Positions 2,325 to 63,932 of a DNA stretch of 64,000 nucleotides are shown here, in pieces. Location: NCBI GenBank assembly GCA_937625935.1, contig OW569355.1, positions 310,001 through 374,000 of the forward strand. The letters run 5' to 3'. The notes below the pieces were generated by a model. That model was not told the origin of the DNA and did no database searches. It worked only from the letters and a program-made list of their open reading frames with translations. Every line of letters begins with the position of its first letter. Positions within the stretch are counted from its first letter, which is position 1. The DNA comes from Tetramitus jugosus. Lineage: Eukaryota; Protista; Heterolobosea. The translations under genes were made by a program, and so were the position numbers.

Positions 2325-5300
2325 ATGTCCGACCCAGAAGAACAGCAACACCAAGAAGAAATGTTGCACCAACAACAACACCAACAACAATCGCAACAAC
2401 CAGAGTTGCCACAGCAAAGTCATCCATCAATGAATCAAATCGAACTTAGACCTCCTCTCCAAAACAGCGTTGTTCAGCAAACACAGGAAATACAGATCGA
2501 AACATTAACGATAACCGATGTGGTGACACCTCAACACGAAGAATATGGACAATATCAACACTCCCAGCAAGACTCGAAACACTTCCATGACATTAGCATA
2601 ACGCCCATATCACCAGACACTCTTCAAGCTGGAAACATGTTCGTTCTGAATCCAATGAGCAGCGACCACACGAGCGAGTTCTTGAAACGCAAGGAGAATC
2701 TGATACAGAATGCACTTCAGTCGATTGACAGTCGGCACTGGAGCTTTCAAAATCAAGTAGACAAGAAGGCCAGAAACCACTTGATGTCTCTCTTGTTGGA
2801 CCATTGGGAACTTCAAAAGAGTCATTCGATATTGTCCTTTGCTTGGTTCCAGAGAAGGGACAATAGCGGAGCGCCGTCATCTGATTCATCCAACATTGTA
2901 TCAGACGAGGAACTGCAAAAACAGTTTGAGTCGAGCGTAGAAAAGACATACAAGGAAATGATGCGAGAATACAAGAGATGGTGCATTGTTGCGAAGGTAC
3001 CACCTCAATCCACGCCCAATGATACCATTCAAGAGCGAATTGCAGCTCTATTGTTACTGTTAATGATATTCGGAGAAACAGATATTGTTCGAAGTCAAAA
3101 CCATGTGTGCTTCATGTTATTGCACATAGGTTTGCGCATGGCGTTTTCGGATGAACACAAGGCAAAGATGCTGCAAGGTATGCCTCCTGCGATGCCAGCA
3201 ATGGATTACAATCCATATCACAGTCCTATTCAGAGCATACTACCAGAGTTTGAGAGCAGTGATGATTCCATGTCGACAATGGATCAGAACCAGCATCCGA
3301 CAATTGGAGGATTAGTACGAAGAGAGGCTAGATTAGTTTATAATCTAATGTCTCTCATGTTCGATTCCAATAAGAGAAATGACCAATTTTTCGATTGGGA
3401 CGATTTGAATGACTTGTGCTGGACAGAACATTTCGTAAGAAAGTTCATTGTGCCCAGCAAGAAGAACAGAGAACCGATTGAAAGATATCACATTGATCCA
3501 TTAACAAAAATCAATCCATTCTTTATCGGTGGGTTTGAACGTGCTCTGGGCTTAAAAAGGTATCCATTGATGCAGAAGGTGATATCAATGCATCAGGAAG
3601 AGATGCCTCCCTTCATCAAATCAGAGGAAATTGAAAAGAATCTCGGCAAAGAAAAGTTCTGGTTCATGAACAGATGGAAGACCTACTTTGACAGGGCGGG
3701 AGGTATATTAGGATGGAAAGGATACATGACATACTTCTTAAATTGGAGTGCACCAGTGTACTATCAATTGTTCTGTCTAGCAATTGGTCTCGGATGGATG
3801 TTTAACTTCCAGTTCGGTGGAGGCATTGCCAATTATGTGTACGCGGGTATTTCTGCTTTTCCATTGGCACTCATGGTTGTATACTTTGTGTTGAAACATG
3901 TTGTGTTCCGGTGGTGGACATCACCACTTGTTCATCATCCTCATTATTGGAGTATTCCGAGAAGAGATACGATGAGCAGGGGCTATGAGATGGAGGGACT
4001 CGGTATCACAAGTTTCTTCATCGGTCATATTCGCAAGTATCTTCATTGGCGTCATTTAGTATCGATTCCACTCGTAGTGTTAGTAACTGCTTCCTATATT
4101 GCATTCATGAGATGGGTATTGTTTGAGACAGTGAGACAAATCACCTATGATACTATTGAGATAACTGTGAGGTTGGGTACAGGTGCAATAGCTGCTAGTG
4201 TCCTCACTGGTGCAGACTATGCAAACTTGATCCTCACTTACATGGTGTTTGCGCTACTCTGGACATCTATTTTGTTCATGTGCGTGATCATTGCTCCTAT
4301 TCTGCTCCAATGTTGGGTAGGTGTTTTTGGTTTCATCAGAGGTATCCAATTGCAAGTGAATAGAGTCAACTGCTGGGCTGATTTAAGAAGATGCTTCATG
4401 GACAAGAAATTGATTCTGAGCAACTTTAGAAGGAAGATGTTAGCTGGAGTGGATTACAATGACAATGACTTGATCGAATGTTCCTTTGCAACTGTTTGGA
4501 ATGCTATTCTTGACGACTTTTATGAGAACCACCAGCTATCAAAGTCTGAGAGGGATCGATTGTCATACACTTTCAGAACTGGAACCTCGGTACAAATTTC
4601 AAAGCGACCCGAACTTGATACGAGACCCGTCAACAGTCAAGTAAGGCACCACTTGATCAAGTTTGTAAATAATCTATACATGAGAAGTATGCCATCGGAG
4701 AACATCCGAATTATTGATATGAAGAGATTGTGTGTCTTCACGCCAGTTTTCAAGGAGAAGATTTACTATAGCTGGGAGGAGTTAGTCAGACCAGGTAACA
4801 CCAATTCAAGTTTCCTCAAGGCACTTATTCTCAAGTATCCAGAGGATTGGAAGAATTTTAAGGAGAAGGAGTTCCCTAGTGGAAATCGTCTTCGAATCAC
4901 AGTTGATTACATTGAAGCCAAGGTGTTGGCAGGTATTGACATTACAGCTCACAAAGTACATGCATCCACAACTACTCACTTTATGAAGGCCATGATTCGT
5001 TCTTGGGCCTCACAACGTTTCCAACCTGTCAGTAGAACTGTTAAGGGATTCATGAAGGTTCCAAAAGCAATGGCTATTCTATTGAGATTGCAAAATCCAG
5101 AGTTAAGTGATGAACAAGTGAGGTCAATTGTGAGACAAAAGTTCTCCTATGTTGTTGGTGCCCAGTTGTATGATAAGAAGGTTTGGAATCAAACAACGAG
5201 ACACGACACCCTCTCGACCAGTGATCAGAAGAAGAACATTCAAGAGCATAGAGAATACGTTGAAGGTCTGGATGAGTTATGCAAATCAATCGGGGATTGT

Positions 5301-8300
5301 ATGTTAAAGATTGCGTTTGTGAAACAGACGAAAACACCCAGCAAAGTTGACCCAAATGTTGCCCCGAAATACACCTCCGTTCTAAGAACCTTCAATGGTG
5401 ATAGATCTGAAGATGTTTATCAGATTGAATCCTTTGGTAACTTTAGTAGAACCGGTCAAGGAAAGCCAACAAATCAAGCTTTCATGATGCAATTCTTCGA
5501 TGGTAGTTACTGTCAAACTATTGATTGTAATATGGATTCTACATTGAGTCAGTCCTTGTTCGTACCTAACGTTCTCAAGGAGTTTGACAGGGACAGCAGA
5601 GTTAAGATTGTCGGTTGCAGTGAATACATTACAACGAAAGCTTGGTCAAAGGCCGGTTATGCTGCAGCATTTACTGAGAGAGTATTCGGCAGCATGGTTC
5701 AAAGAGTCTGGTACATGATTGGCTTAAGATTCCATTATGGTCATCCTGATTTCATGAGAGGCTTGCACATCATGTTTACGAGTGGTCTATCAAAGTTGAG
5801 TTACATTTCAGAAGATATCTTTAACGGATTCGATTGCTTGTTGAACAATGGCATTTCCAAGCATATTGACTACTTTGAAGTCGGAAAGGCCAGAGATGTG
5901 TGTATGATTTCTACCACAAAGTTTAACAGAAAGATTGCTGGAGGTGGTGCTCAGATTGCATGTAGTAGATATGCCAAGCTCATTCTGACTTCAAGACACT
6001 TGACCTACATTGACAAGCTTCTTTTCTGCTACTCTGTGATTGCTCATTATGCCAATACGACACTGACTATAGCATCTGCTTTTGTCTTGTACTTCTCGAG
6101 ACAAATTATTCTCTTGGCCATCTATATTTATATTAGAGCTACACCATTTGACAGAACAACCATTACAGGATCCGCTATTGGATTAGTCACTCAATCTCTG
6201 AGACTTGTTTCTGATTCAATGTTCTTGTTCCAGGTTGGTATGGCTCTATCATTCCCAGGAATTCTACAAAACGTGTTAGATAGGGGTATCTTGAGAGGTC
6301 TCTATGAGTATATCACTAACTTTGTTTGGTTACTCATCTATTCCATGTTCCAACTGTTGAACACTGCCTTCTATTTCCATAATGGTTTCAATCAATCGGC
6401 CAAGTACATTGCTTCTGGTAGAGTGACAGGTCTAGAACACACTACTATCATTGACACATGGAGAACATTCAAGTCTACTCACTTCATCCCTGCCATTATC
6501 ATGATGTTGTTGTTGATTATTGGATTAATTACAACAACCAATTGGGGATTCGTTGTGTACCATTGTCTCATGATTTTCATCTGGTTCTTTAGTCCTTTCC
6601 TGTTTAACACAGGTGCATTGCCTTATGACGTCAGTGTTTCAGTGTGGAAGCAGTTGTATGCCGAAGATTTGTTCAGAATTAAGACTTGGATCAGAAATAA
6701 TTGCAAGGCACAAGACGTCGAGAAAATCATGTTGAAGAATAGAACTGAGAGACATTTGGGTCTAGAATATGAATTCTATGCTGAGAAGACGCAGGTAGAT
6801 CACTTGGAACTTGATTTAGAGATGGGATACGATAAGAAAGATCAGTTGAAGAACAATCGAACAGAACAACCTCAACTACCGATGATTCAACTCCAATCCA
6901 ACATGCAACATAGAAAGATAAATTGGAAGGGCTCAAGAAAGAACTTTGAAGACAGAGAAGCCCCGACAGCCAACGAAACTCTGGTTAGGTATGGAAAGCG
7001 CAGAAGAGGATTCCACTTCATATTTGTCCAGCCATTCATCTTGATCAAGTTCTGTGTCTTCCTTATACCCAAGCTGTTCTTGTTGTTGATTCTGTATGTC
7101 ACAAAGCTCCTTTCCTACTTGATTTTGCTGTACAAGATTCTCGCTCCATGGACAAGTCCTCCAGACTACCTATCAGCCTATCAAGAACAATATCATGTCA
7201 AGATTACTGAGAGCAGATTGCTCAATATTCAAAGATTGTTCGGCAAGTTCAAGGAAGAGATGACTAGTGGATTGCCTCAGAATGAGTCAAAGATGGGAGT
7301 TGGTTTCTTGGAAGCAAAGAGAAGAAGAGATACAAATTCGAGTGCAACTAACTTGCTGAAACACTCGTCTATATCCTCGGTGAACAGATTTGATAATGCA
7401 ATTCCATCAGCACCGATACTTCCAATTACATCCAAGGACCTTATTACAAGGTTAGAACAGATTAGAGGCCATGACACTATTATCTACCAGGAGCTCTGTA
7501 TCCTGTCCAAGGAAGTTTCCGTTGAGCAAAGCAAGTCAGCTCAAACCACAATCTATCTAACTGCAGTGAAGACAATGAATATGAGAAAGAATGGTCTCTA
7601 TTCTAACAGAGACTTGTTACTCCTATGCGAGCGATGTAGTGATTACACATTCAATCCGAATCACAATGTGAGAGGCTCCATGTCAGTCAAAGAGATCGAA
7701 AGACTACAGCTCATCCATAGTATGGCTATGCTCTATCTCTTCTACCAGTTAGAACAGTTCAAGGTTGAAGTGAAGAGAGTTATTCAGACTGTTGACATAC
7801 TATTGAAGAACAAGGACTCGAGAAAGTTCGAGAAGGCAGCTCAAATTGTTGTCCAAGCTGGAACCAATTTCTTCACGAGAAATCGCACTGCTTATTACAA
7901 TATTCTGATATCTGACAATCCTCAGAGAAAGAAGGTGAATAACATGATGAGAGATCAATTGAATTTATTGCTTGGACAGTTGTGCAAGATTTCACAGACT
8001 CAAATGAAGGAAGCAAAGTCATACTTTAGAGCTTTCAGTATCAAGGAGAATCAGTTGGACCTATTCCAAGTGAAAACTCCAACTATTGGAGCCCCAAGAC
8101 AGCAGTGCTCCACTTGTCAACAAGGTAAGAGATTGATGAAGGTGAAGAATCTCATGGAAAGAACGTTGAACTTCGTCACAAGAATCACTGAGAACAGACC
8201 TTCTTACTCTCATAGAAAGCAATACCAATCCGCCAATGTGACCAGTATTGCTGAATCAAGTGTCTTTGAGAGTGACAATGGCTTCTCCTTGTTCGATCAA

Positions 8301-8669
8301 ATTTTCCCAATTTATGCAGATGAGACACTAGATGTCAAGTACACCGATAGAATTGTGGAAGTGAACAAGGGTTTGTTGTTCGACGATCTTTACCGTCGAA
8401 TGCTCGAACACTTCAATGCCAAGATCTTCTCCATGCTTGAGAATGATTGCTATGACATGCTGGCCTACTTACAAAAGAGAAAGAACGAGCTCGTGTGCAC
8501 TACATGTCAAAGACCTTATGTGAGTAAGGCATTCAACAAGACACCTGTCATTGGTAACGACAAGAATGGATCGGACACTGACAACTCGGATGACGACTCC
8601 TCACCAAGTAATTCAAACGTACATCCGAGAGCTTTTGGTTCAGTTGTCTCTCTATCCTCCAATTCATGA
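2325..8669 (+). CDS. 1,3-beta-glucan synthase (GT48, FKS/callose synthase family), divergent, with a long C-terminal extension
   Basis: 2114-aa intronless ORF with GT48 motifs in the correct order (WASQRFQPVSRTVKG, GQGKPTNQ, QTIDCNMD, RFHYGHPDF, SEDIFNG, EVGKARDV), flanked by hydrophobic TM clusters. Confidence 0.9.
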   Translation: MSDPEEQQHQEEMLHQQQHQQQSQQPELPQQSHPSMNQIELRPPLQNSVVQQTQEIQIETLTITDVVTPQHEEYGQYQHSQQDSKHFHDISITPISPDTLQAGNMFVLNPMSSDHTSEFLKRKENLIQNALQSIDSRHWSFQNQVDKKARNHLMSLLLDHWELQKSHSILSFAWFQRRDNSGAPSSDSSNIVSDEELQKQFESSVEKTYKEMMREYKRWCIVAKVPPQSTPNDTIQERIAALLLLLMIFGETDIVRSQNHVCFMLLHIGLRMAFSDEHKAKMLQGMPPAMPAMDYNPYHSPIQSILPEFESSDDSMSTMDQNQHPTIGGLVRREARLVYNLMSLMFDSNKRNDQFFDWDDLNDLCWTEHFVRKFIVPSKKNREPIERYHIDPLTKINPFFIGGFERALGLKRYPLMQKVISMHQEEMPPFIKSEEIEKNLGKEKFWFMNRWKTYFDRAGGILGWKGYMTYFLNWSAPVYYQLFCLAIGLGWMFNFQFGGGIANYVYAGISAFPLALMVVYFVLKHVVFRWWTSPLVHHPHYWSIPRRDTMSRGYEMEGLGITSFFIGHIRKYLHWRHLVSIPLVVLVTASYIAFMRWVLFETVRQITYDTIEITVRLGTGAIAASVLTGADYANLILTYMVFALLWTSILFMCVIIAPILLQCWVGVFGFIRGIQLQVNRVNCWADLRRCFMDKKLILSNFRRKMLAGVDYNDNDLIECSFATVWNAILDDFYENHQLSKSERDRLSYTFRTGTSVQISKRPELDTRPVNSQVRHHLIKFVNNLYMRSMPSENIRIIDMKRLCVFTPVFKEKIYYSWEELVRPGNTNSSFLKALILKYPEDWKNFKEKEFPSGNRLRITVDYIEAKVLAGIDITAHKVHASTTTHFMKAMIRSWASQRFQPVSRTVKGFMKVPKAMAILLRLQNPELSDEQVRSIVRQKFSYVVGAQLYDKKVWNQTTRHDTLSTSDQKKNIQEHREYVEGLDELCKSIGDCMLKIAFVKQTKTPSKVDPNVAPKYTSVLRTFNGDRSEDVYQIESFGNFSRTGQGKPTNQAFMMQFFDGSYCQTIDCNMDSTLSQSLFVPNVLKEFDRDSRVKIVGCSEYITTKAWSKAGYAAAFTERVFGSMVQRVWYMIGLRFHYGHPDFMRGLHIMFTSGLSKLSYISEDIFNGFDCLLNNGISKHIDYFEVGKARDVCMISTTKFNRKIAGGGAQIACSRYAKLILTSRHLTYIDKLLFCYSVIAHYANTTLTIASAFVLYFSRQIILLAIYIYIRATPFDRTTITGSAIGLVTQSLRLVSDSMFLFQVGMALSFPGILQNVLDRGILRGLYEYITNFVWLLIYSMFQLLNTAFYFHNGFNQSAKYIASGRVTGLEHTTIIDTWRTFKSTHFIPAIIMMLLLIIGLITTTNWGFVVYHCLMIFIWFFSPFLFNTGALPYDVSVSVWKQLYAEDLFRIKTWIRNNCKAQDVEKIMLKNRTERHLGLEYEFYAEKTQVDHLELDLEMGYDKKDQLKNNRTEQPQLPMIQLQSNMQHRKINWKGSRKNFEDREAPTANETLVRYGKRRRGFHFIFVQPFILIKFCVFLIPKLFLLLILYVTKLLSYLILLYKILAPWTSPPDYLSAYQEQYHVKITESRLLNIQRLFGKFKEEMTSGLPQNESKMGVGFLEAKRRRDTNSSATNLLKHSSISSVNRFDNAIPSAPILPITSKDLITRLEQIRGHDTIIYQELCILSKEVSVEQSKSAQTTIYLTAVKTMNMRKNGLYSNRDLLLLCERCSDYTFNPNHNVRGSMSVKEIERLQLIHSMAMLYLFYQLEQFKVEVKRVIQTVDILLKNKDSRKFEKAAQIVVQAGTNFFTRNRTAYYNILISDNPQRKKVNNMMRDQLNLLLGQLCKISQTQMKEAKSYFRAFSIKENQLDLFQVKTPTIGAPRQQCSTCQQGKRLMKVKNLMERTLNFVTRITENRPSYSHRKQYQSANVTSIAESSVFESDNGFSLFDQIFPIYADETLDVKYTDRIVEVNKGLLFDDLYRRMLEHFNAKIFSMLENDCYDMLAYLQKRKNELVCTTCQRPYVSKAFNKTPVIGNDKNGSDTDNSDDDSSPSNSNVHPRAFGSVVSLSSNS

Positions 8670-13567: not shown

Positions 13568-14083
13568 ATGGTCAACCCACTGCACTGGATTTTCACAAAA
13601 GATATCATTGGAATATTTATCTATCCTCGGATCTTCCTGCATGGCGTTTTTTCTACGATCCGGAATCGTTTCAACAGAGATCCCTTCTTCAATGACTTCC
13701 GGTTCCAACCTCACGATGTAGTGGACTTCAAAATCGAAGAATTAAAGGTCATTAAAAGTCTCAACGATTCAAAGTGGGCCTCTGAGCTTGAAAGCAAGGA
13801 CCAAAAGGTCAGCATCCAAGATGTCAGAGCCACCCTGGAGGAACTCAGAAGATGTGATGTCAATTATGTAGGCTTTGTTCCCCGTGCGGATTCGATTCTC
13901 ATTCTCAAGCTCAAGGATGGAAGACTGATTCATCTGGCCTTGAGTTCCCATGGTCGATCTATTGGTCACGTCGTACCAAGAAGTGCATTCAGCCACTGGT
14001 ATTTCAAGAAAAATGAACCTAACTTGGACTCGTTCTGCACCCTTGTGTCCCATGATCCAAAACAATCTGATTTTGAACAGTAA
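13568..14083 (+). CDS. Hypothetical protein
   Basis: Open frame MVNPLHWIF...SDFEQ, divergent from the cathepsin. Its 3' part is duplicated just downstream. Confidence 0.55.
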   Translation: MVNPLHWIFTKDIIGIFIYPRIFLHGVFSTIRNRFNRDPFFNDFRFQPHDVVDFKIEELKVIKSLNDSKWASELESKDQKVSIQDVRATLEELRRCDVNYVGFVPRADSILILKLKDGRLIHLALSSHGRSIGHVVPRSAFSHWYFKKNEPNLDSFCTLVSHDPKQSDFEQ

Positions 14084-14215: not shown

Positions 14216-14310
14216 AAGCTCAAGGATGGAAGAAGATTCCATCTGGCCTTGAGTTCACATGGTCGTTATACTGGCCACGTCGTACCAAGAAGTGCATTCA
14301 CCGAGTGGTA
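14216..14310 (+). pseudogene. Partial tandem duplicate of the 3' part of the 13568-14083 gene
   Basis: About 95 nt near-identical to 13907-14001 (KLKDGRRFHLALSSHGRYTGHVVPRSAFTEWY vs KLKDGRLIHLALSSHGRSIGHVVPRSAFSHWY). Confidence 0.75.
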
Positions 14311-14653
14311 CTGCAGACAACAGAGCACCCTTAAACTCCTTCTACTCCCTTGTTTCCCACGATCCCAAGTCTACCACAATAAAGTGATAACATTGTTTCG
14401 TTTTTGTGTCTCCACAACAGGTCTTGCGATTTTAGACACCAACCCACCGATCTCTAGAGGTACCACAAAGAATGGTCTTTTCTATTAGATTTTCCCTGCA
14501 TTCTCCTATCTTAAAGTAAGCATTAATGTGATTCAAGTAGTTAAAGGAGTATCTGATTCACCAATTTATTCAAGTGCTGACCTTTTTCTCGTAGATCAAA
14601 GGCAAAGATCGGGGAAGGATGTGGGAACAGAGGTTTGTATAAGTTAACTAAAA

Positions 14654-21716: not shown

Positions 21717-22844
21717 ATGTGTGACGACGTTCAAGCCCTAGTTGTTGATAACGGATCTGGTATGTGTAAGGCTGGCTTTGCCGGTGATGACGCACCAAGA
21801 GCTGTCTTCCCTTCCATCATTGGTAGACCAAAGCAAAAGTCCATCATGGTCGGTATGGGTAACAAGGATGCCTATGTCGGTGATGAGGCTCAATCCAAGA
21901 GAGGTATCTTGACCTTGAAGTACCCAATTGAACACGGTATTGTGACCAACTGGGACGATATGGAAAAGATCTGGCATCACACCTTCTACAATGAGTTGAG
22001 AGTTGCTCCAGAAGAGCACCCAGTCTTGTTGACTGAAGCTCCTTTGAACCCAAAGGCCAACAGAGAAAAGATGACTCAAATCATGTTTGAGACCTTCTCC
22101 GTCCCTGCAATGTACGTTGCTATCCAAGCTGTCTTGTCCTTGTACGCTTCCGGAAGAACCACTGGTATCGTCTTGGATTCTGGTGATGGTGTTTCCCACA
22201 CTGTCCCTATCTATGAAGGTTATGCTTTGCCTCACGCCATTTTGAGAATTGATTTGGCTGGTCGTGACTTGACTGACTACATGATGAAGATTTTGATGGA
22301 AAGAGGTTACTCATTCGGAACTACTGCCGAAAGAGAAATTGTCAGAGATATCAAGGAAAAGCTTTGCTACATTGCTCTTGACTTTGACGAAGAAATGAAG
22401 AAGGCTGCAGAGTCCTCTGTCGTTGAAAAGTCCTACGAATTGCCTGACGGTAATGTCATCACTGTCGGTAACGAAAGATTCAGATGCCCTGAAGTCTTGT
22501 TCCAACCAAACTTTATCGGTATGGAAGCTGCTGGTGTCCATGAGACCACCTTCAACTCCATTGGTAAGACTGATATTGATATCAGAAAGGACTTGTACGG
22601 AAACGTTGTCTTGTCCGGTGGTACAACCATGTTCGAAGGTATTGCTGAGAGATTGACCAAGGAATTGACCAATATGGCTCCTGCTTCCATGAAGATCAAG
22701 GTTGTTGCTCCACCAGAGAGAAAGTACTCTGTCTGGATTGGTGGCTCCATCTTGGCTTCCTTGTCCACTTTCCAACAAATGTGGATCTCCAAGGAAGAAT
22801 ACGAAGACTCTGGTCCAGGTATTGTCCACAGAAAGTGCTTCTAA
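21717..22844 (+). CDS. ACT: Actin
   Basis: Canonical 375-aa intronless actin; TATA-like TATTTAA upstream near 21614. Confidence 0.99.
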
Positions 22845-23175
22845 ATCTTTTCATAAACAATTTTCTTACATACAACTTCGATCCCTTTTTTATGAGATGC
22901 TCATCTTTGTCAGTTTGGGTTCAAGTACTTCTACTGTCACACCAGAAATCATTTATTGCTATTGTTCTGCAATTCCATCATCCCAAAGCTTATCACTTTT
23001 CAATGATGCGCAAACCTCATCCAAGCTGGAACCAGAGTTTAAACTCTCGACTTCAGCTTGATCACTCAACACAAAGCCCAAGTGGTCAAATTCTTCCAAC
23101 TTTGGGTATTTTCCCTCATATCACTCCCAACTTTGTTCATAACTCCATAGAAGTGCAGAGCAAGGAAGAGAAACA

Positions 23176-24277
23176 GAGGAAGATGAGTTGATTCGGCTCA
23201 TTTGTGAGTTTTGATTTTCTTTTCTTTCCGTAGACAGAGTCCGGCGCCACACCGGAGTAACCAAACACTGTCCAGGTGCAAGCTCTTGTACAGTTCTACC
23301 AAGGTCTCGTACCAGTTATCAATCAATTCAAAGTTTGAAAAACAGAGTAAGAACTATCAGGATGATAATCCGCTCACCAGCGAAAGAGGACAATAAGGAA
23401 GTTTGGAAGCTAACAAAGATTTCCTTCACTGTTGACTCCTATGATTATGAACAATTAAAGGGAATGAAGACAAGAGCCATGCGGGCGGTCGAAGAAAACT
23501 CTATGGACAAAGGGGCCGATATTCTCTTCGGAACAAGAGAGGATCGCAAGGAATACTTTGCCATCATCCAAGGTCAAGATGAAGAACATGATGATAAAAT
23601 AGCTCTCTTTATTGAAAACTTCTTCCTTTTGAATGAAGTCTTCAACAAAACTGTGGTGAGATCAAAGGTCAGTAAGTTCTTGAGAGAAGGGATGAACATT
23701 CAACAGGTCAAGCTGGAATACGAAGATCCTGACAATCAGTACATCTCTGGGGAGGTAGCCTCCCAACCAAAATTTGATGCTGTTGTCTACAAGGAAGCGA
23801 CTAAAAACAGCCTTTTGGCTAAGAAACGAAGGTTGAAAGAGATTTCCGTGAGTGACAGTGCCCCTTCGGAGCAAGAAGCAAATGTGACTCCACCCCAGAA
23901 GAAGCTCAAACCTCAGTTTCCCTTCAACATTGATAGGGGACGTGGGACTAGTTCAATGAGCCATGATAGGCTTGTGGAGAAATATCAAGAAAGGATAGCT
24001 CAGATGACGAGTGAACATCGTGCGGAAGTAGCCCAGTTGAGAAATGAGTACAAGCAGCTTATCAAGGAACACCAAGCGCAGATCTCGGAGTTGACCAATC
24101 AACACCAATTGAAGATTGACGAGATGATCGAGGAACAATACAAGAAGATTGACAAGCTTACCGAGGAACATCGCGAGGAAATGAGAAATATGAAGGAATG
24201 AAGGGTTTAAAAACCGATTCAACCAGATCCAGGAACATTCAATAAATACGTCTTTTATTGAGGCATTCGGTGCTGTG
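23176..24277 (+). repeat. Actin-linked repeated cassette, copy A, containing an ORF (23335-24201) for an unknown protein with NLS-like motifs and a coiled-coil tail
   Basis: Highly similar to the reverse complement of 61586-62508. A polypyrimidine-AG acceptor-like site precedes the ORF. Confidence 0.85.
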
Positions 24278-24372
24278 CCTTGTCCACTTTCCAACAAATG
24301 TGGATCTCCAAGGAAGAATACGAAGACTCTGGTCCAGGTATTGTCCACAGAAAGTGCTTCTAAATCTTTTCA
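24278..24372 (+). repeat. Direct repeat of the actin 3' end (last ~28 codons, stop and start of the 3' UTR)
   Basis: Identical to 22759-22853 (CCTTGTCCACTTTCC...TGCTTCTAAATCTTTTCA). Confidence 0.95.
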
Positions 24373-24403
24373 ACGAATTCAACAAGTGCACAAAACAATC
24401 AAC

Positions 24404-24512
24404 TTAAGGTGGCGGTCTACTGTCCATCAAGCCATAATAAAAACATTATGGTTTCCCGATAAGACACCTTAACGCTCCTACATAATCGGGACTTACATAG
24501 CAGCTTGATGGA
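24404..24512 (-). ncRNA. Putative Fanzor omega-RNA scaffold; the guide would continue into the flank below 24404
   Basis: Complementary pairs: 24423-24432/24503-24512, 24432-24438/24445-24451, 24454-24460/24485-24491, and a pseudoknot 24465-24472/24404-24411. It sits at the element end downstream of, and overlapping, the Fanzor stop. Confidence 0.7.
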
Positions 24513-26960
24513 GTGAGCCTTGGAGGTGTTCCACCATTTTGATTAATTCTTTTGCGACCTTTTTCTTCCTCTTGAAGGCATCGGGACGTGACTGTCCATC
24601 CATTTCTGTTCTCAGTAGATGGAGCATGTTCTTGGCCGCATTGATGTCTCTGTTGTGAGTCACTAAACATTTAGTGGTTGCACACTGTTTAACTCCTCGG
24701 ACGACAGAGACATTCAACGTTCCATTCTTGTCTATTCTCTTATGCTTGACTGGCTTCATGTGAGAATGGCAATGATGACATTTCTGACTTGTCATGAACT
24801 CGTCGATCATTTTCACTTTGAAGTGCTCATTCAACTTTTTCAATAGCTTTCCTTTTGGTGTTGGAGCATGTCCTTTGTAACAATGACCAAAACCAGCATT
24901 GCCCATCCCAATTAACATGGTTCTTCCATTTGTTCTCTTTCGAAAGTCATTCATATCATTGGCAATCGTCTTATCTCTCATTATACAGCTATCCCAATTC
25001 AGTCTCTTCACCTTTGGGGTGCAATAAAAATTCAACAAATCATCCTCGACTTTCAATACAGAATTGATGTGTTCAAGGAACAGACCACTTGTTGGTACAC
25101 CGGCCTGTTTGATTGAGTTATGGAGTTCATCCAAGTTCTTCATTTCGTTCCATTCTGCTTTGTATTTCAACAATCACTTGGAGTTTTTTGAATGGTGGGA
25201 CAGATGTCTATATGTTTTGTTAGAAAACACCCACTTCTTGCCATCTGAATCAGCACAACTCACCAATGTAACAATACCCGGGTCAATCCCAACCAAATAT
25301 TCAGCACCTTCGTTCATACTTGCTTCTTTCTTTCTCTTCTTTGCTTCTTTCTGGCCCTTGGATTCCTTTGCCTTATTGTTCTTGTGATTGCCAACGAGTT
25401 TATGTCTCAAGTGTTTGAATATCGGAACAAAGAAGATTCAAATCGACTCTATCAGAACTGACGGTATTTAGGCCTCTGTTGTATTTCAATTCAATGGTTC
25501 AATAACTTGTACATTACCCTTCTTTTGTCCTCCTGGTTTCTTCTTCTGTTGGAGCATATCTGTCAGTTCCGTTGTACCAATCTCCATGCATCTACATTTG
25601 AAGTGGGACAAGGGCAACAATGCAAATGATTTCGTATCATTGCCAATCAGAAACTGTTGAGCATGCCAGTAAAACTTCAGCATGTTATTGGTGTTGTTGT
25701 TCACAAATGATTCATCAATTACTTCGTCAGTTTTAGCACCACCAAGTGTTCGAACCTCTCGGATCAACCCAGGAACGATCTCAATCAATTTCTTTGGAGG
25801 CAGTTTGACAAAATCATAAACTGGAGTGGCAAATGTCAACTTTCGGATGATGCATTCTATGACTCTTCTGTATTCAGACCTTGGGATTGCTTGGTCATTG
25901 TACAATTGATTCATCCTCACTCAAATACTTTCTCAGTCTTTGTTCCAATGTGAACTTGAGCATGTTAGAAATATTGACATTGAGAGACTTGGCAACGTAA
26001 TTGATGGATTTGGAAAATTTCTCATAAATCTTCCTTAGCTTGATTATTACGTCATCCATGTTGATTGCATGCTCGGCCAGGTGCTTTGCAATCATTCCTG
26101 GATGTTGTTTGGGTAGCCTCTTCTTGATAAATTCACACACTTCTATTCCGTCCAAGCTTTCAAACAGTCCATCACAAGCAACGACAATAAATTGTTCCTC
26201 ATTCGTTTCTGAAGATTTTTCTTGTGATGACACTTTTTCCAACGAAAGAGGTCGTAGATCTGGAGTAACAATCAGAGGTTGTTGTTGAGGTGAAACTCCA
26301 TGCACTTGCTTGTCTTCAAAATCTCCGAATGCTCTACTCATTGCTAAATGACCATCAAGTCTGCTCCGACGAACAAAGCCACCATGAGTCTCTATTCTCT
26401 TCTTTTCCAATGGATCGGTCGGTTTGTGATCCTTTGACAGACCCGTTGATGAGGTTGACATTATCGTCTCTTGTCGGGATAACACAATTGTTCTCCAAGT
26501 GGCTCAAAACGAATATGTTTATAAATCTTGTGAGTCGAAGAGCAATCCTTTTCATCTCCAGAACTTGAGTTTGTATGATTAGTAACAGAGTTGGATGATG
26601 TAACAACAGAGACTTCAGACCGACCTTGACCACGTAATGTGATGAGTGTTTGTCCTTTTCGACAGCTTTTAAACCGAGGTAGATGGCCCTTTCCGTTGTA
26701 AAGACAGTCTCAACGGAAAATTTTACAACTGCACCAATTCCGCAGCTTAGAGGAAACTCACATTTATTGTTGAAGCTACTTGAAGCTTCTACTATCAATG
26801 AAAGTGCTAGCCGCATCAAAACTGGTTTCGTTGAAGTATAATCGTGTTGGAATATTGAACTACATCTTTTGCACTTTAGACAACAGAAAGATGACGTTAC
26901 TCGTTAGGCAAATGCTTTTTTTCTTCTTGGGTGGTGGTTCAATCTCGCGTGGTAGCTCTT
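24493..26960 (-). pseudogene. Fanzor1 (TnpB-like RNA-guided RuvC nuclease), disrupted
   Basis: N-terminal VVKVGLKSLL...MKRIALRLTRFINIFVLSHLE; NISNMLKFTLEQRLRKY; KSFALLPL; RuvC-I LVGIDPG; GHAPTP; RuvC-II IDEFMTSQKCHHC; CATTKC plus RuvC-III HNRDINAAKNM; RPDAFKR. Lesions: PP2C insert, frameshift near 25920, inversion ~25373-25487, in-frame TGA at 25174-25176. The 5' limit is approximate. Confidence 0.88.
26066..26444 (-). pseudogene. Captured fragment of a PP2C (PPM) protein phosphatase inside the Fanzor
   Basis: LSKDHKP...EKKRIETHGG...RLDGHLAMSRAFGD...FIVVACDGLFE. The N-terminal DGHGG and C-terminal GSxDN motifs are absent. Confidence 0.9.
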
Positions 26961-27337
26961 GAAAGAAAACGTGTATTGTTGATATCTAGTCAATGTTTTG
27001 TGTGAGGCTTAAAAATCGGCAATGTTAATCATCGTTATTTCCGTTAGACGTAAAAATGTTTATTGGTGATTGTATGTGGAGTTTTATCATCTATTGTGGA
27101 TGATTAACACTTGTGTATGGATTCTGATGTTTTTTGATCGACCCAATTACGAGGAGTTGGTAGACCGCCACCTTAAAAATCAAAAACTTCTCTTGGTGTT
27201 GTCTCTTTAAAATTGCCCAGATTGCTTGTTCTTGCATTCTTTCAATACAAACAAGATGATCTTCAATACAATGCAATTTAACGGTACTTGCTTATCAAAG
27301 TGTGCTCTGCAATTTGACCATTTATTCTTGTCTTTGA

Positions 27338-29239
27338 TTACTCGTACCTGTTGATCAACCAAGATGATTCCTTTGTCTTTTGCAACCTGTTCATTGCCTT
27401 GTTGATGTAGAAGAGGAAAAGAGCAATACCAACAATGGGTGAGATCACACCCAGGTAGTAATAACCATCGGACATTGTTACACAACTCTCTCCGCTCACG
27501 CAAGACTTTGTCATATCAGTTGTTGAACAACTCCAGCGAGTAACGGATTCAGAAGTGGCGGGAGTGCCAGTTGGGACACAAGCCTTGCTCGTCATTAGAT
27601 CAATAAAGTAGTAGCCAAAGAATCTGGGGTATGTTCCACCCAAGTTGGCCAAAGTATTTAAGAATGTCATGTACGTTCCGCCAATTCTTGGATCGGCAAT
27701 CTTGGCAAAGAAACTGCCTTGTGCGACAACCATAAAATTGGAGCACAGAGAATACACGAGAAAGATGAGTAACACCAGTGCATAATACCCTAATGAAACT
27801 TCTCCTCCGTGTGGGAACGTGTACACGAGTAAAACACCGGCCAGAGCAATAAATGCTCTCATCACATAACCGAGCTTCCAAGGCTTCAGTGGCTCTCCTT
27901 CTCTAGATAGTTTGCCAGCTAGAATCGCAAACAGGAACTCGAATGGAAATGCAATGGTGACCAAAACTGCAAGATTATCCTTTCTGAATCCCTTTTCAAC
28001 TAATTTAAGTGGTGTAATCGAATCGGCAACTACAAAACCGAGTCTGCAAATCATGAGAACAATCATGTACGTTTGCATTGCTTTAATATTTCACATCAGA
28101 TAAAATATAGAATTACGGGTGAGTGTTACTATCATTGTTATCAATATCATGAGGTGAATTCACACAAATCAAACATACCTGGTAACTTGATAATAGATAA
28201 AATATGACGATAGACACTCGCGACATCCAAATCAGCAGCATCTAGTTCAATTTCTTTCTCGTGCTTGAACAGAGCCAACAACATCGTAAATACAATGTAG
28301 ACAATTCCCCAAAAGGCCAAATAACCACCAATGGACAAAACTCCAGTGCTCTGAGGCACAGATCGAAGATAGGCATTCGAAAACTCTGGTGAGTTCAATG
28401 CCAAGAATATCGTGTACGACATAAAGTATCCAATACTAAGTCCAATGGATTGACACGTCGAAGCATATCCAATATTATTCTTGTGCAGAATCTCAAGCGC
28501 CCATCCATCCACAGCAATATCCTGAGTAGCAGTCAACAAAATCACCACAAAGAACAACCCTGTCAAGTAGCTAATTTGAATGTGTTGTGCATGAAAAATT
28601 TCGTCCACGTGACTAGAGATGTACAAGAACAAGAAGCCAACAATTAATTGAATGGGAACAATCCATGATTTTCTACGGCCAAATGATCGAATAAACACAG
28701 AGTCAACAATTGGCGACCACAGCAATTTCAAGCTATAGGGATACGAAGCAAAGGAGAAGATACCTAGATCAGTGTAGCTCGAATTTTGTTGAATGAGAAA
28801 CGGAATGGAGCCAAACACCAAACCAATTGGCACACCTTGAATCGTGTCTACACATGATTACACACAAAAAGCAAAAAAGTAACCAATCAAGTCAATTATT
28901 AATGAGTCGATGATGCGCACGTGTCAAAAAAACAAAATCAACCCATAATAAAGAATGCAATCAACCATAAAACTTACACAATGAAATGAGCAATATCATA
29001 TTGTACAAATCATCTCGCATTGCAACTGCAAAACTTGGTCTTCTTTTTCTTGTCGTAGAATCTTGCTGTTCTTCATCTTCTCTCTTTTGAATCGATACAT
29101 TTTGATGATCCACATTGTCCTTTGCAGTGAGCAACGAAGCATCACTAGAAAGCTGCGAGTGTTGTTTTCGCTTGTTGATGGCTTGCGCACTACCACTTGA
29201 TTGTGGTGGAGGAAGATTTTCCTTGTTCTTGGATGACAT
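27338..29239 (-). CDS. Acetyl-CoA transporter (SLC33A1/AT-1, MFS); exons 29239-28978, 28847-28179, 28080-27338
   Basis: LYTIQGVPIGL, YPYSLKLLWSPIVDS, GRRKSWIVP, ATQDIAVDGWAL, DPRIGGTYMTFLNTLANLGG, DGYY. GT-AG introns keep the frame. Confidence 0.92.
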
Positions 29240-42586: not shown

Positions 42587-43750
42587 AATGGCATGTTGTA
42601 TCGTCGATGTAAAGGAAAGAAGAGCACAAATCGAAATATATTACCAGCAAGTGTTGGAAAACCTCCTGAATCATGGGTCAATGGTGTTCATTTTGTTGAT
42701 ACTGAGGTGAGAGAAGAGAAAGAAGGTACTGATGACTAAGGAAGAAGCGATTGATCTTGTTCGAGCAATGAACCAGGTTAATGGACATTGTGGTCGCGAT
42801 GCTTTAAGAACACTCATGAAGGAACACTACTACTATGGTATAGATAAGATCATTTCATCCAACTCTCAATGCGACGAATGTGATCGACATAAACCATTTG
42901 TAGCCGATGAACAAACATATACTCCAATCATTACCACTTATCCACTGGAAAGATTACAGATGGACGTAACATATCCCAAAGAACTGAGGACAAATGGTCA
43001 TCAGGATATGTGGTTGGCAACAGCAAGGGATCATTTTACAGGTTATTGTTGGGTAAAGGTTATTGAGAATAGATCATCTGAAACCATGGCCAATTTCTAT
43101 AATGGAATCCTCAATAACATTTTGATGATGACAAGTATTGCATTAGTACCAACTATTGTCCAGTACGACCAAGGAACAGAAGGTAGAGGTCTGTTCGAAC
43201 AAGCGGTTGTGAATAGTGGTGCTCGTCTCGTTCGCAGTGGTGTCACTCATCCTCAGAGCAATGGAGGGATAGAGCAGTTTCATGGGAAAATCAAACCACT
43301 AGCAACAATAGTCATGAATGGTAATGGTGGTATGATAGTGCTATTGTTGAGGCAATGAGAATATATATAATCATCGACCATCCAGTGTCACACAGATCTC
43401 CCCATATCACATGTTCATGAATTTGTTGATTTACAATCCAACATATTGGACAACAAGAGGAGCGACCATCAATGAGTCGTTGAGAGCGACTGCGTCACTA
43501 ATTCATAGTTCAGTTGTTAGTTGCAAGGCTAAAAGAAGAAAGCTTGATGCCAAGAAGAGAACAAGGATGGTGAATGATCAGAGGATAAAGGAGGGTGATG
43601 TTGTATAGGTGAAAGATAGAAAGAAAACAAAGTATCTTGGAGAAGTTGTATCTAGATATGACAATGGACGAGTGAAGATTAAATTCACAGATGCGAATGG
43701 TGGACCAAAGGGTGAGACGCATGGAACTGGGCTTGTATATGGCAAGTAAT
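42587..43750 (+). mobile_element. Decayed retroviral-type (rve) integrase, Ginger/Gypsy-like
   Basis: NGMLYR; zinc finger GHCG...CDEC; DDE triad LQMD / QYDQG / HPQSNGGIEQ; frameshifted continuation YNHRPSSVTQISPY; C-terminal IKEGDVV*VKD. Contains several frameshifts and a stop. Confidence 0.8.
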
Positions 43751-61270: not shown

Positions 61271-61477
61271 TTTAAACTATTCATTAAGGTGTTGTATTAG
61301 CTTGTTAAGGAGAAGTATCGAATACAATCAACATTAACTCAGTGAGTTGTTGCAGAAAAAATCCAGCAACATGGTTTAGCACAGAATTCAGCCAGGACAA
61401 TCGGAGCAAATAGATAAGAATTGATTTTCAAGTTGAATGTTGTTATAAAGTTGTTGAATTACGATGATATTTGTGTC

Positions 61478-61585
61478 AGAAAATTGTTTATGAAAAGATT
61501 TAGAAGCACTTTCTGTGGACAATACCTGGACCAGAGTCTTCGTATTCTTCCTTGGAGATCCACATTTGTTGGAAAGTGGACAAGG
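61478..61585 (-). repeat. Second direct repeat of the actin 3' end (108 nt)
   Basis: Matches the actin 3' end and 3' UTR up to ...TAAACAATTTTCT; same 5' breakpoint (GTG|CCTTGTCC) as copy A. Confidence 0.95.
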
Positions 61586-62508
61586 CACAGCACCGAATGC
61601 CTCAATAAAAGACGTATTTATTGAATGTTCCTGGATCTGGTTGAATCGGTTTTTAAACCCTTCATTCCTTCACGATGTTCACTCTTCATCTGAGCTATCT
61701 TTTCTTGATACTTCTCCTCACGTCTATCATGACTCACTGAGCTAGTCCCACGTCCCCTATCAATGTTGAAGGGAGACAGAGGCTTGAGCTTCTTCTGGGG
61801 TGGAGTCACATTTGCTTCTTGCTCCGAAGGGGCACTGTCACTAACGGAAATCTCTTTCAACCTTCGTTTCTTAGCCAAAAGGCTGTTCTTAGTCGCCTCC
61901 TTGTAGACAACAGCATCAAATTTTGGTTGGGAGGCTACCTCCCCAGAGATGTACTGATTGTCAGGATCTTCGTATTCCAGCTTGACCTGTTGAATGCTAA
62001 TCCCTTCACTCAAGATCTTACTGACCTTTGATCTCACCACAGTTTTGTTGAAGACTTCATTCGAAAGGAAGAAGTTTTCAATAAAGAGAGCTATTTTATC
62101 ATCATGTTCTTCATCTTGACCTTGGATGATGGCAAAGTATTCCTTGCGATCCTCTCTTGTTCCGAAGAGAATATCGGCCCCTTTGTCCATAGAGTTTTCT
62201 TCGACCGCCCGCATGGCTCTTGTCTTCATTCCCTTTAATTGTTCATAATCATAGGAGTCAACAGTGAAGGAAATCTTTGTTAGCTTCCTAACTACCTTAT
62301 CGTCCTTTTTAACTGGCGAGCGGATTATCATCTTGATGGTTCTTACTCTGTTTTCCAAACTTTGAATTGATTGGTTACTGGTATGAGACCTTGGTACAAG
62401 AGCTTGCACCTGGACAGTGTTTGGTTACTCCGGTGTGGGCCGGACTCTGTCTACGGAAAGAAAAGAGAATCAAAACTCACAAATCAGCCGAATCAACTCA
62501 TCTTCCTC
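61586..62508 (-). repeat. Actin-linked repeated cassette, copy B (ORF 61618-62409), with an internal deletion of the coiled-coil tail
   Basis: Inverted, near-identical copy of 23176-24277. Confidence 0.85.
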
Positions 62509-62804
62509 GGTTTGTCTCAATAAAATAGAGAACTGTGGTTAGTTCGGTCTCTGTTAAATTGTTTTAAACTTTCTCACTGCCACATCATGGACTCGTTCAT
62601 ACGCCAAGGAATTCGCTGAATCCAATAGCCATAATGACATATTGTGCTGGAACGTCTTGTTCTCCTCTATTTGTTGAATGGGGATGAAATTGAAACCGAG
62701 TAATCATGTTAAGTCAGTCTGATCTCAAACAGAAACTGACAAACATGAGCATCTCATAAGAAAGGGATCGACGTTGTATGTAAGAAAAATGTTTATGAAA
62801 AGAT

Positions 62805-63932
62805 TTAGAAGCACTTTCTGTGGACAATACCTGGACCAGAGTCTTCGTATTCTTCCTTGGAGATCCACATTTGTTGGAAAGTGGACAAGGAAGCCAAGAT
62901 GGAGCCACCAATCCAGACAGAGTACTTTCTCTCTGGTGGAGCAACAACCTTGATCTTCATGGAAGCAGGAGCCATATTGGTCAATTCCTTGGTCAATCTC
63001 TCAGCAATACCCTCGAACATGGTTGTACCACCGGACAAGACAACGTTTCCGTACAAGTCCTTTCTGATATCAATATCAGTCTTACCAATGGAGTTGAAGG
63101 TGGTTTCATGGACACCAGCAGCTTCCATACCAATAAAGTTTGGTTGGAACAAAACTTCAGGGCATCTGAATCTTTCGTTACCGACAGTGATGACATTACC
63201 GTCAGGCAATTCATAGGACTTTTCAACGACAGAGGACTCTGCAGCCTTCTTCATTTCTTCGTCAAAGTCAAGAGCAATGTAGCAAAGCTTTTCCTTGATA
63301 TCTCTGACAATTTCTCTTTCGGCAGTAGTTCCGAATGAGTAACCTCTTTCCATCAAAATCTTCATCATGTAGTCAGTCAAGTCACGACCAGCCAAATCAA
63401 TTCTCAAAATGGCATGAGGCAAAGCATAACCTTCATAGATAGGGACAGTGTGGGAAACACCATCACCAGAATCCAAGACGATACCAGTGGTTCTTCCGGA
63501 AGCATACAAGGACAAGACAGCTTGGATAGCAACGTACATTGCAGGGACGGAGAAGGTCTCAAACATGATTTGAGTCATCTTTTCTCTGTTGGCCTTTGGG
63601 TTCAAAGGAGCTTCAGTCAACAAGACAGGGTGCTCTTCTGGAGCAACTCTCAACTCATTGTAGAAGGTGTGATGCCAGATCTTTTCCATATCGTCCCAGT
63701 TGGTCACAATACCGTGTTCAATTGGGTACTTCAAGGTCAAGATACCTCTCTTGGATTGAGCCTCATCACCGACATAGGCATCCTTGTTACCCATACCGAC
63801 CATGATGGACTTTTGCTTTGGTCTACCAATGATGGAAGGGAAGACAGCTCTTGGTGCGTCATCACCGGCAAAGCCAGCCTTACACATACCAGATCCGTTA
63901 TCAACAACTAGGGCTTGAACGTCGTCACACAT
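62805..63932 (-). CDS. ACT: Actin (protein identical to the 21717-22844 copy)
   Basis: Same 375-aa protein with only a handful of synonymous differences. Confidence 0.99.

What the first reader, a model, noticed from the sequence alone, without database searches (positions are those of the whole stretch)
61421..61468. Paralogous empty site of the Fanzor insertion, with the predicted TAM mutated
Seen: removing the element and one TTAA gives (minus strand) TTGATTT-TTAA-GTTGATTGTTTTGTGCACTTGTTGAATTCGTTGA. The equivalent position next to the second actin cassette reads (plus strand) TTGATTT-TCAA-GTTGAATGTTGTTATAAAGTTGTTGAATTACGATGA. This independently supports the element boundaries. The empty paralog has TCAA in place of TTAA (61428-61431), matches the TAM-proximal guide at 9/10 nt, and then diverges. 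Inference: the element landed in a repeated, actin-linked sequence, so its guide would have aimed at sister loci (a homing or gene-drive-like opportunity). This locus may be an escape allele, or it may have diverged neutrally.
Basis: partly seen in the sequence, partly recalled or inferred. Interest (0 to 1): 0.78.

Follow-up and report, generated by a model that had tools for sequence, protein, structure and literature searches.

The report
Old empty paralog of Fanzor insertion
A short stretch behind one actin gene matches, at 35 of 44 positions, the spot behind a sister actin gene where a broken jumping gene for an RNA-guided DNA cutter (Fanzor) sits, which pins down where it inserted, but the one-letter difference in its predicted recognition motif is likely ordinary old drift between the two gene copies rather than escape from cutting.

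Summary
Observation confirmed; escape and homing not supported. The stretch 61421-61464 is a true paralog of the reconstructed insertion site (35 of 44 columns, score 43, 0 of 5000 shuffles), with TCAA at 61428-61431 and a 9/10 guide match. It supports the element ends (13-bp inverted repeats, TTAA duplication), though only 7 bases are shared on the TAM side. The C looks like background. TAM plus first ten guide positions carry 2 differences in 14 columns against 7 in 30 elsewhere (p=0.70). The actin 5' flanks, far from any target, differ as much (7-12 of 57-58). This element copy is only about 2% from its relatives while the flanks differ by 17%, so most flank differences likely predate the insertion. 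The element is multicopy (roughly ten coding copies by contig depth), a second locus has no actin flank, and this Fanzor copy is broken by seven lesions. Homing into the paralog would lack a second homology arm. TTAA alone is unlikely to be the whole TAM, since the filled junction itself reads TTAA plus a perfect target. No outgroup was found, so which letter is ancestral is untested. Side lead: the ends fit the Kolobok signature.

The parts
61421..61464 (+). Paralogous empty site: outer 3' flank of the second actin locus, homologous to the flanks of the insertion
   Evidence: 35/44 columns, 0 of 5000 shuffles
61428..61431 (+). TCAA at the position of the duplicated TTAA (predicted TAM position)
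61432..61446 (+). Would-be protospacer; ungapped mismatches to the predicted guide at positions 6, 11, 13, 14, 15
61466..61490 (-). 25-nt segment after the actin stop codon that the filled locus lacks
24373..24403 (-). Right flank of the element; source of the predicted guide (first ~15 nt from 24403 down)
   Evidence: sequence; guide position inferred from PMC10711439 and PMC13565253 passages
24404..24407 (.). TTAA target duplication, right end
24408..24420 (-). 13-bp terminal inverted repeat, right (Fanzor 3') end
24389..24495 (-). Candidate omega-RNA region (scaffold, repeat, TTAA, guide); predicted only
   Evidence: position by analogy; fold not better than shuffles, z -1.0
24493..26672 (-). 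Broken Fanzor1 gene (true start somewhat further upstream); RuvC and zinc-finger motifs survive in the pieces
   Evidence: lesions
25408..25482 (.). Short internal inversion in this copy
   Evidence: opposite-strand joint in 4 of 4 runs; opposite-frame tblastn hit
26061..26433 (-). Protein phosphatase 2C fragment inserted in the Fanzor coding sequence of this copy
   Evidence: PF00481 E=1.3e-28; joint 26060-26434 in 4 of 4 runs
27160..27172 (-). 13-bp terminal inverted repeat, left end
27173..27176 (.). TTAA target duplication, left end (predicted part of the TAM)
27177..27183 (-). The only 7 bases on the TAM side shared with the paralog (61421-61427)
21717..22844 (+). Actin gene, locus 1
   Evidence: 1120 of 1128 bases identical to locus 2
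62805..63932 (-). Actin gene, locus 2
23167..24372 (+). Shared inner segment of locus 1: orphan ORF 23362-24201 plus a second copy of the actin 3' end (24278-24372)
61491..62517 (-). Shared inner segment of locus 2: orphan ORF 61618-62331 plus a second copy of the actin 3' end (61474-61585)

Best explanation
The stretch is the outer 3' flank of an actin paralog that matches the insertion site of a broken Fanzor1 transposon behind a sister actin gene, and its TCAA is likely one of several neutral differences that arose before the element arrived. Shown: two actin loci 37 kb apart in inverted orientation share near-identical actin genes and an inner segment, while their outer 5' and 3' flanks are homologous but differ by about 12-21% plus indels. 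Inferred: a dispersed TTAA-specific cut-and-paste family, moved by a transposase encoded elsewhere, landed in the flank that happened to have TTAA; the filled copy is therefore conditioned to show TTAA, and the difference could have arisen on either lineage. Inferred: the guide of this copy would be aimed at its own empty allele or excision site (restorative homing), using Fanzor from other copies, since this copy has decayed. The paralog was likely never a good target and could not easily receive the element, because only 7 bases are shared on the TAM side.
For: No enrichment: 2 differences in 14 TAM+seed columns versus 7 in 30 elsewhere, Fisher p=0.70; with 9 differences in 44 columns a hit in the 4 TAM columns has probability 0.61. 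Internal control: the actin 5' flanks, about 2.5 kb from the target, are homologous (score 45, 0 of 3000 shuffles) and differ at 7-12 of 57-58 aligned bases with 9-19 gap columns depending on gap costs, against 7 of 42 at the site. Clock: this element copy differs from L002 at 14 of 617 bases and from contigs of three runs by about 1.8%; 7 or more substitutions in 42 bases since insertion has p=7e-4, and a post-insertion change in the paralog has about 11% of the available branch length. Dispersal: in run X3 a Fanzor-body contig has depth 130 and a right-end contig 318 against 12.4 for the unique flank contig (table 8); L002 holds another copy whose right flank has no actin or window similarity. 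One arm only.
Against: No outgroup or third paralog was found (0 hits each), so the ancestral letter and the date of this single change are untested. Only 42 aligned bases: 95% interval for the divergence is 7-31%. The clock assumes equal rates and that the copy was not refreshed by conversion. Fanzor1 can be lenient: GtFz1 tolerated most single mismatches and forms a 9-bp duplex (PMC11423790 passage) and SpuFz1 has minimal activity with a 10-nt guide (PMC10432273 passage), so a TTAA version with 9/10 might be cut weakly. Of 23 window sites with at least 9/10 guide match, the paralog is the only one with a 3-of-4 TAM. Depth is not a calibrated copy number, and the L002 end is itself damaged.
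Confidence: 0.75

Rival explanations
1. Neutral change after the insertion: the paralog had TTAA when the element arrived and drifted to TCAA later without selection.
For: About 11% of the branch length is available for it.
Against: Most of the divergence predates the insertion by the same clock.
Confidence: 0.09
2. Selected escape allele: Fanzor made by intact copies loaded this locus's guide RNA, cut the paralog through TTAA plus a 9/10 seed match, and the TCAA variant spread because it is immune.
For: Single TAM changes abolish cutting in SpuFz1 and GtFz1 and single guide mismatches are mostly tolerated in GtFz1. Guide RNAs from protein-less loci work in trans for SpuFz1. Other family copies lack this copy's lesions. 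The paralog is the best near-target in the window.
Against: No enrichment at TAM or seed; same divergence in untargeted flanks; ungapped match falls to 10/15 over a native-length guide (14-15 nt); TAM, guide RNA and activity all untested.
Confidence: 0.07
3. Shared short motif rather than shared ancestry: the likeness reflects a constrained signal behind actin genes or AT-rich chance, so it is not an empty site.
For: Short, AT-rich, and homology stops 7 bases past the site.
Against: 0 of 5000 shuffles, best of 2130 tiles outside the locus, same position behind an identical 182-bp segment. Even if constrained, it still marks the insertion point.
Confidence: 0.05
4. Cleavage scar: the paralog was a perfect target, was cut 14-21 bases from the TAM and was repaired with errors, which made the cluster of differences at guide positions 11-18.
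For: Five of nine differences fall in one 9-column stretch overlapping the published Fanzor1 cut positions.
Against: The clustering is not significant (p=0.16); they are four scattered substitutions and one extra base, whereas SpuFz1 repair in human cells gave larger deletions; it does not explain the C in the TAM.
Confidence: 0.04

Closest known systems
RESite, a paralogous empty site used to confirm transposon ends (PMC2213677; abstract and passages)
   Same: A paralogous sequence that spans the insertion point and lacks the element.
   Different: Here the shared part is short, about 80% alike and only 7 bases long on one side; the element carries an RNA-guided nuclease, so the site could also be an off-target.
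SpuFz1 / Spu-1 element of Spizellomyces punctatus (PMC10432273, passages and Discussion; PDB 8GKH)
   Same: Fanzor1 of similar size in a non-autonomous inverted-repeat element, multicopy with protein-less derivatives; only solved relative found, E=1.9e-21. Conserved bases lie upstream of the left repeat.
   Different: TAM CATA and 30-nt repeats there; TTAA duplication and 13-bp GG-start repeats here; this copy is a pseudogene and no TAM was measured.
Insect-virus Fanzor1 elements HVav-1, SFav-1, PUgv-1, HAgv-1, and HAmv-1, MCi-3 (PMC3627910; passages, Additional file 13 read, file 1 rows seen)
   Same: 13-bp repeats and TTAN or TTAA duplication without a transposase; T precedes the left-hand duplication in 10 of 11 listed copies, as at 27177 here.
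   Different: Their ends start with CC (piggyBac-like); these start with GG. No sequence link was tested.
Kolobok superfamily (PMC9587614, passages)
   Same: TTAA duplication with 5'-RR...YY-3' ends; reported from Naegleria.
   Different: No transposase between the ends here, so membership rests on ends alone; Kolobok is not among the Fanzor carriers listed in PMC13565253 section 5.5.
Restorative homing by TnpB/Fanzor (PMC13565253, sections 5.5 and 6.2 read, other passages)
   Same: Guide from the right flank, 5' duplication part of the TAM, 3' duplication part of the scaffold; aims at the empty allele.
   Different: The finding concerns a non-allelic paralog with one homology arm, which that model does not cover.

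Membership tests
RESite (paralogous empty site) | Paralogous sequence matching both flanks across the insertion point, without the element | tested here: met
   35/44 columns, 0 of 5000 shuffles; only 7 bases on the TAM side
Fanzor1 | RuvC with DPG motif, catalytic E six residues before the zinc finger, C-terminal RD | tested here: met
   Motifs found in the window pieces; feature as described; Pfam PF07282 E=1.7e-10
Fanzor1 | Closer to Fanzor1 than to Fanzor2/TnpB, 600-700 aa | tested here: met
   Relatives of 648-749 aa; only PDB match is SpuFz1; no tree was built
Fanzor1 | Intact reading frame in this copy | tested here: not met
   Two frameshifts, a stop, an inversion, a 373-bp insert and two further losses
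Fanzor1 | omega-RNA running through the right end into the flank | tested here: inconclusive
   Fold z -1.0; only contigs were available, which cannot show RNA ends
Fanzor1 | RNA-guided, TAM-dependent cleavage; TAM identity | not testable with these tools
   Needs a TAM screen; TTAA alone would make the filled junction a perfect target
Kolobok | TTAA target duplication | tested here: met
   Both ends here; TTAA also ends the L002 copy and a related end in X3 (table 7); a TA duplication with 14-bp repeats reads the same at this locus and is not excluded
Kolobok | 5'-RR...YY-3' termini | tested here: met
   GG...CC (definition)
Kolobok | Kolobok DDD/E transposase in the element or an autonomous partner with the same ends | tested here: inconclusive
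   None seen between the ends; no genome was held to look for a partner
Nuclease-resistant (escape) allele | Changes enriched in TAM or seed over background | tested here: not met
   2 of 14 versus 7 of 30, p=0.70; control flanks equally diverged
Nuclease-resistant (escape) allele | Derived state that postdates the insertion | tested here: inconclusive
   No outgroup found; clock gives about 11% prior
Nuclease-resistant (escape) allele | Ancestral version is cut, derived version is not | not testable with these tools
   Needs in vitro cleavage
Homing target | Long homology to the donor on both sides of the cut | tested here: not met
   7 bases on the TAM side, then none; different neighbouring genes

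The most novel reading that the evidence does not exclude
A dead Fanzor copy still supplies a guide RNA that intact copies use in trans to cut a non-allelic actin paralog, and the host paralog fixed a one-base TAM change that made it immune: a natural resistance allele against a eukaryotic RNA-guided nuclease, in a Fanzor1 family carried by Kolobok-type ends.
Probability: 0.07. Interest if true: 0.72.

Novelty: new member of a known kind. Interest (0 to 1): 0.24.

Why it matters
As it stands it is a clean confirmation of the ends of a Fanzor1 transposon, by a standard method, and a caution: a filled site is conditioned to carry the target motif, so one mismatch at a 17%-diverged paralog says nothing about escape. 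If the escape reading were true it would be rare evidence that a Fanzor cuts its host genome in nature, a role that PMC10432273 calls unknown; two searches (listings only) showed no paper on natural escape alleles at paralogous Fanzor targets. Two testable side points have value: the TAM probably extends beyond TTAA, and the ends suggest Kolobok as a Fanzor carrier (one search found one paper with both words, and it does not link them in the passages read).

Tried and rejected
Pattern scans for further empty paralogs or actin 3' ends found nothing: metagenome contigs 0, viral contigs 0, genome contigs 0. The end motif gave 1 hit in viral contigs, L001, one arm in an unrelated GC-rich context, taken as chance. 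Fanzor relatives with DNA context: 0 of 54 candidates in viral contigs, 1 of 203 in metagenome contigs, 0 of 199 in genome contigs; too few left flanks to derive a TAM. Laying contigs of 4 of 20 listed runs on 22900-28500 showed no joint that skips the whole element among the 15 joints listed of 33; contigs show presence, not absence, so this is no evidence that empty alleles are lacking. One X3 contig starts 29 bases inside the left end and runs through the flank, below the tool's 31-base rule: a hint only that the site is filled there too. Folding the candidate omega-RNA gave z -1.0. The orphan ORF found no convincing relative (one hit at E=9.5e-4; 63). Cluster look-up gave no names, so the host is not determined here. 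Rejected: clustering of mismatches at the cut position (p=0.16); the element as actin-specific; the flank likeness as chance. BioRxiv supplements were not consulted; file 14 of PMC3627910 was not searched and supplements of the other Fanzor papers were not read; Repbase entries could already hold a Kolobok-Fanzor case.

Full report
Observation. TCAA is at 61428-61431. The element lies between perfect 17-nt inverted arms at 24404-24420 and 27160-27176, that is TTAA plus a 13-bp repeat at each end. The site computed by removing the element and one TTAA aligns to 61421-61464 with 35 matches, 7 mismatches and 2 single-base gaps. The score, 43, beat all 5000 dinucleotide shuffles (mean 18.4, max 38) and every one of 2130 window tiles outside the insertion locus and the paralog itself (next unrelated tile 29). 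The predicted guide matches 9 of the first 10, 10 of 15 and 12 of 20 positions without gaps. So this is a real paralogous empty site, of the kind called a RESite (PMC2213677, abstract and passages). Its support for the ends is real but lopsided: only 7 bases are shared on the TAM side (chance about 1.6e-4), and beyond them there is no homology (score 14; 2949 of 3000 shuffles as good), with different neighbouring genes, an acetyl-CoA transporter and an FSH1 hydrolase.

The two loci. Both read actin gene, short shared flank, a different spacer, a shared segment with an orphan ORF, a second copy of the actin 3' end, then the outer flank. The actin genes match at 1120 of 1128 bases, the ORF segment at 810 of 847 aligned bases, and the last 182 bases are identical. 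Identity then drops at once: a 25-nt gap, then 7 mismatches in 42 aligned bases. The outer 5' flanks upstream of the two actin starts behave the same way: homologous (score 45, 0 of 3000 shuffles) but with 7-12 mismatches in 57-58 aligned bases and 9-19 gap columns, depending on gap costs. I infer two old actin paralogs whose coding and inner parts are young or homogenised while their outer flanks drifted. The 5' flank is an internal control: no guide points at it, and it has diverged as much as the target region.

The element. It encodes a Fanzor1: Pfam PF07282 at E=1.7e-10; 5 relatives among 464 candidates, four of them 59-76% identical and 648-743 aa long; the only solved relative is SpuFz1, E=1.9e-21; the three catalytic motifs survive. 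This copy is dead: against contigs of other copies it has a 373-bp PP2C fragment inserted, a loss near 26475, frameshifts near 25919 and 25495, an inversion at about 25408-25482, a stop at 25174-25176 and a 6-bp loss near 25138. The family is dispersed: in run X3 one Fanzor-body contig has depth 130 and one right-end contig 318, against 12.4 for the unique flank contig and 21.8 for the orphan ORF (table 8). The tool warns that depth is no copy number, so read this as roughly ten coding copies, more end-only derivatives, and about two ORF segments. L002, 1 confirmed locus of 203 candidates, is another copy, 603 of 617 bases identical; its damaged right end finishes in TTAA and goes on into sequence with only short 14-24-nt matches (E 0.03 or worse) to the window and none to actin. 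The host is not determined by my calls; unreviewed notes on the same genome call it an amoeba of the Naegleria group, which fits my recollection of the actin sequence but was not tested.

The TAM. But of 23 window sites with at least 9/10 guide match, the only one behind TTAA is the filled right junction itself. TTAA alone would make the element cut its own end, so the TAM likely reaches further upstream. SpuFz1 has conserved CA upstream of its repeat, and T precedes the left-hand TTAN in 10 of 11 copies of insect-virus Fanzor1 elements (PMC3627910 Additional file 13; my count, orientation assumed), as it does here. Under either reading of the ends (TTAA or TA duplication) the paralog's C falls inside the predicted TAM, and single TAM changes abolished cutting by SpuFz1 and GtFz1. 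So the paralog is probably immune. The question is why.

Escape or drift. Three tests favour drift. First, placement: TAM plus guide positions 1-10 hold 2 differences in 14 columns, the rest 7 in 30 (Fisher p=0.70); with 9 differences in 44 columns at least one lands in the four TAM columns 61% of the time. Second, the untargeted 5' flanks are equally diverged. Third, timing: this copy is about 2% from its relatives (11, 12 and 10 differences over about 589, 703 and 540 bases in contigs of three runs; 2.3% to L002), an upper bound on its age, whereas the flanks differ by 17% (95% interval 7-31%). Seven substitutions in 42 bases since insertion has p=7e-4, and a post-insertion change in the paralog has about 11% of the branch length. 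There is also an ascertainment effect: the element needs TTAA to insert, so the filled locus must show it, and TCAA is as likely to be the ancestral letter. Against this: Fanzor1 can be lenient to guide mismatches, guide RNAs of protein-less loci work in trans, the paralog is the best near-target in the window, and five of nine differences cluster near the published cut positions, though not significantly (p=0.16). No outgroup or third paralog could be found, so the polarity of the one base is untested, and the second locus was not checked in independent reads.

Homing. Copying an element into a cut site by recombination needs homology on both sides (established knowledge). The paralog offers kilobases on the guide side and 7 bases on the other, and the loci are inverted on one contig, so repair from the filled copy would more likely rearrange the region than move the element (inference). 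The described role, restorative homing, concerns the empty allele or excision site (PMC13565253). I therefore see no drive-like opportunity at this paralog.

What is new. The empty paralog is a new case of a known kind. I found no paper on natural escape alleles at paralogous Fanzor targets in two searches (listings only), so the rival would be notable, but I give it 0.07. A side lead is firmer in part: TTAA with GG...CC ends is the Kolobok signature (PMC9587614 passages), and Kolobok is not among the Fanzor carriers listed in PMC13565253 section 5.5; one paper held both words and did not link them in the passages read. No transposase was seen, so this stays a resemblance. Verdict: observation confirmed, boundary inference supported, escape and homing not supported; interest 0.24.

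Noticed in passing
window 22759-24372 and 61474-62890: At both actin loci an orphan ORF segment sits between two direct copies of the actin 3' end (95 and 112 bp), as if a unit carrying the actin tail had integrated by recombination into two old actin paralogs. The ORF has no convincing relative; the spacers before it differ between the loci.
   Followed up: partly
window 24404-24420 and 27160-27176: Ends fit the Kolobok signature (TTAA, RR...YY); Kolobok is not in the list of Fanzor carriers of PMC13565253. No transposase seen.
   Followed up: partly
window 24404-24480 and 27148-27176: Signs of end-only derivatives and sister families: an X8 contig joins 24477 to 27148 (depth 2), and loose ends in X3 and X6 show variant terminal repeats, one finishing in TTAA.
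   Followed up: no
window 24389-24407: The filled right junction is itself TTAA plus a perfect guide match, so the TAM likely extends upstream of TTAA.
   Followed up: partly
window 26061-26433: A host PP2C gene fragment is inserted in this Fanzor copy only; other copies skip it in 4 of 4 runs.
   Followed up: partly
window 24371 (run X6): One X6 contig shows a poly(A) tail some 30 bases after an actin stop codon and another a spliced-out 98-base intron at 28081-28178, so X6 looks like RNA; it also covers the Fanzor body, a weak hint that other copies are transcribed.
   Followed up: no
window 42732-43358: Integrase core (rve, E=5.5e-5) remnant, probably of a retroelement.
   Followed up: no
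window 13907-14061 and 14216-14368: A direct repeat of about 155 bp at 81% identity.
   Followed up: no
window 2325-8669: A 2114-aa ORF that from memory resembles a 1,3-beta-glucan/callose synthase; not tested.
   Followed up: no
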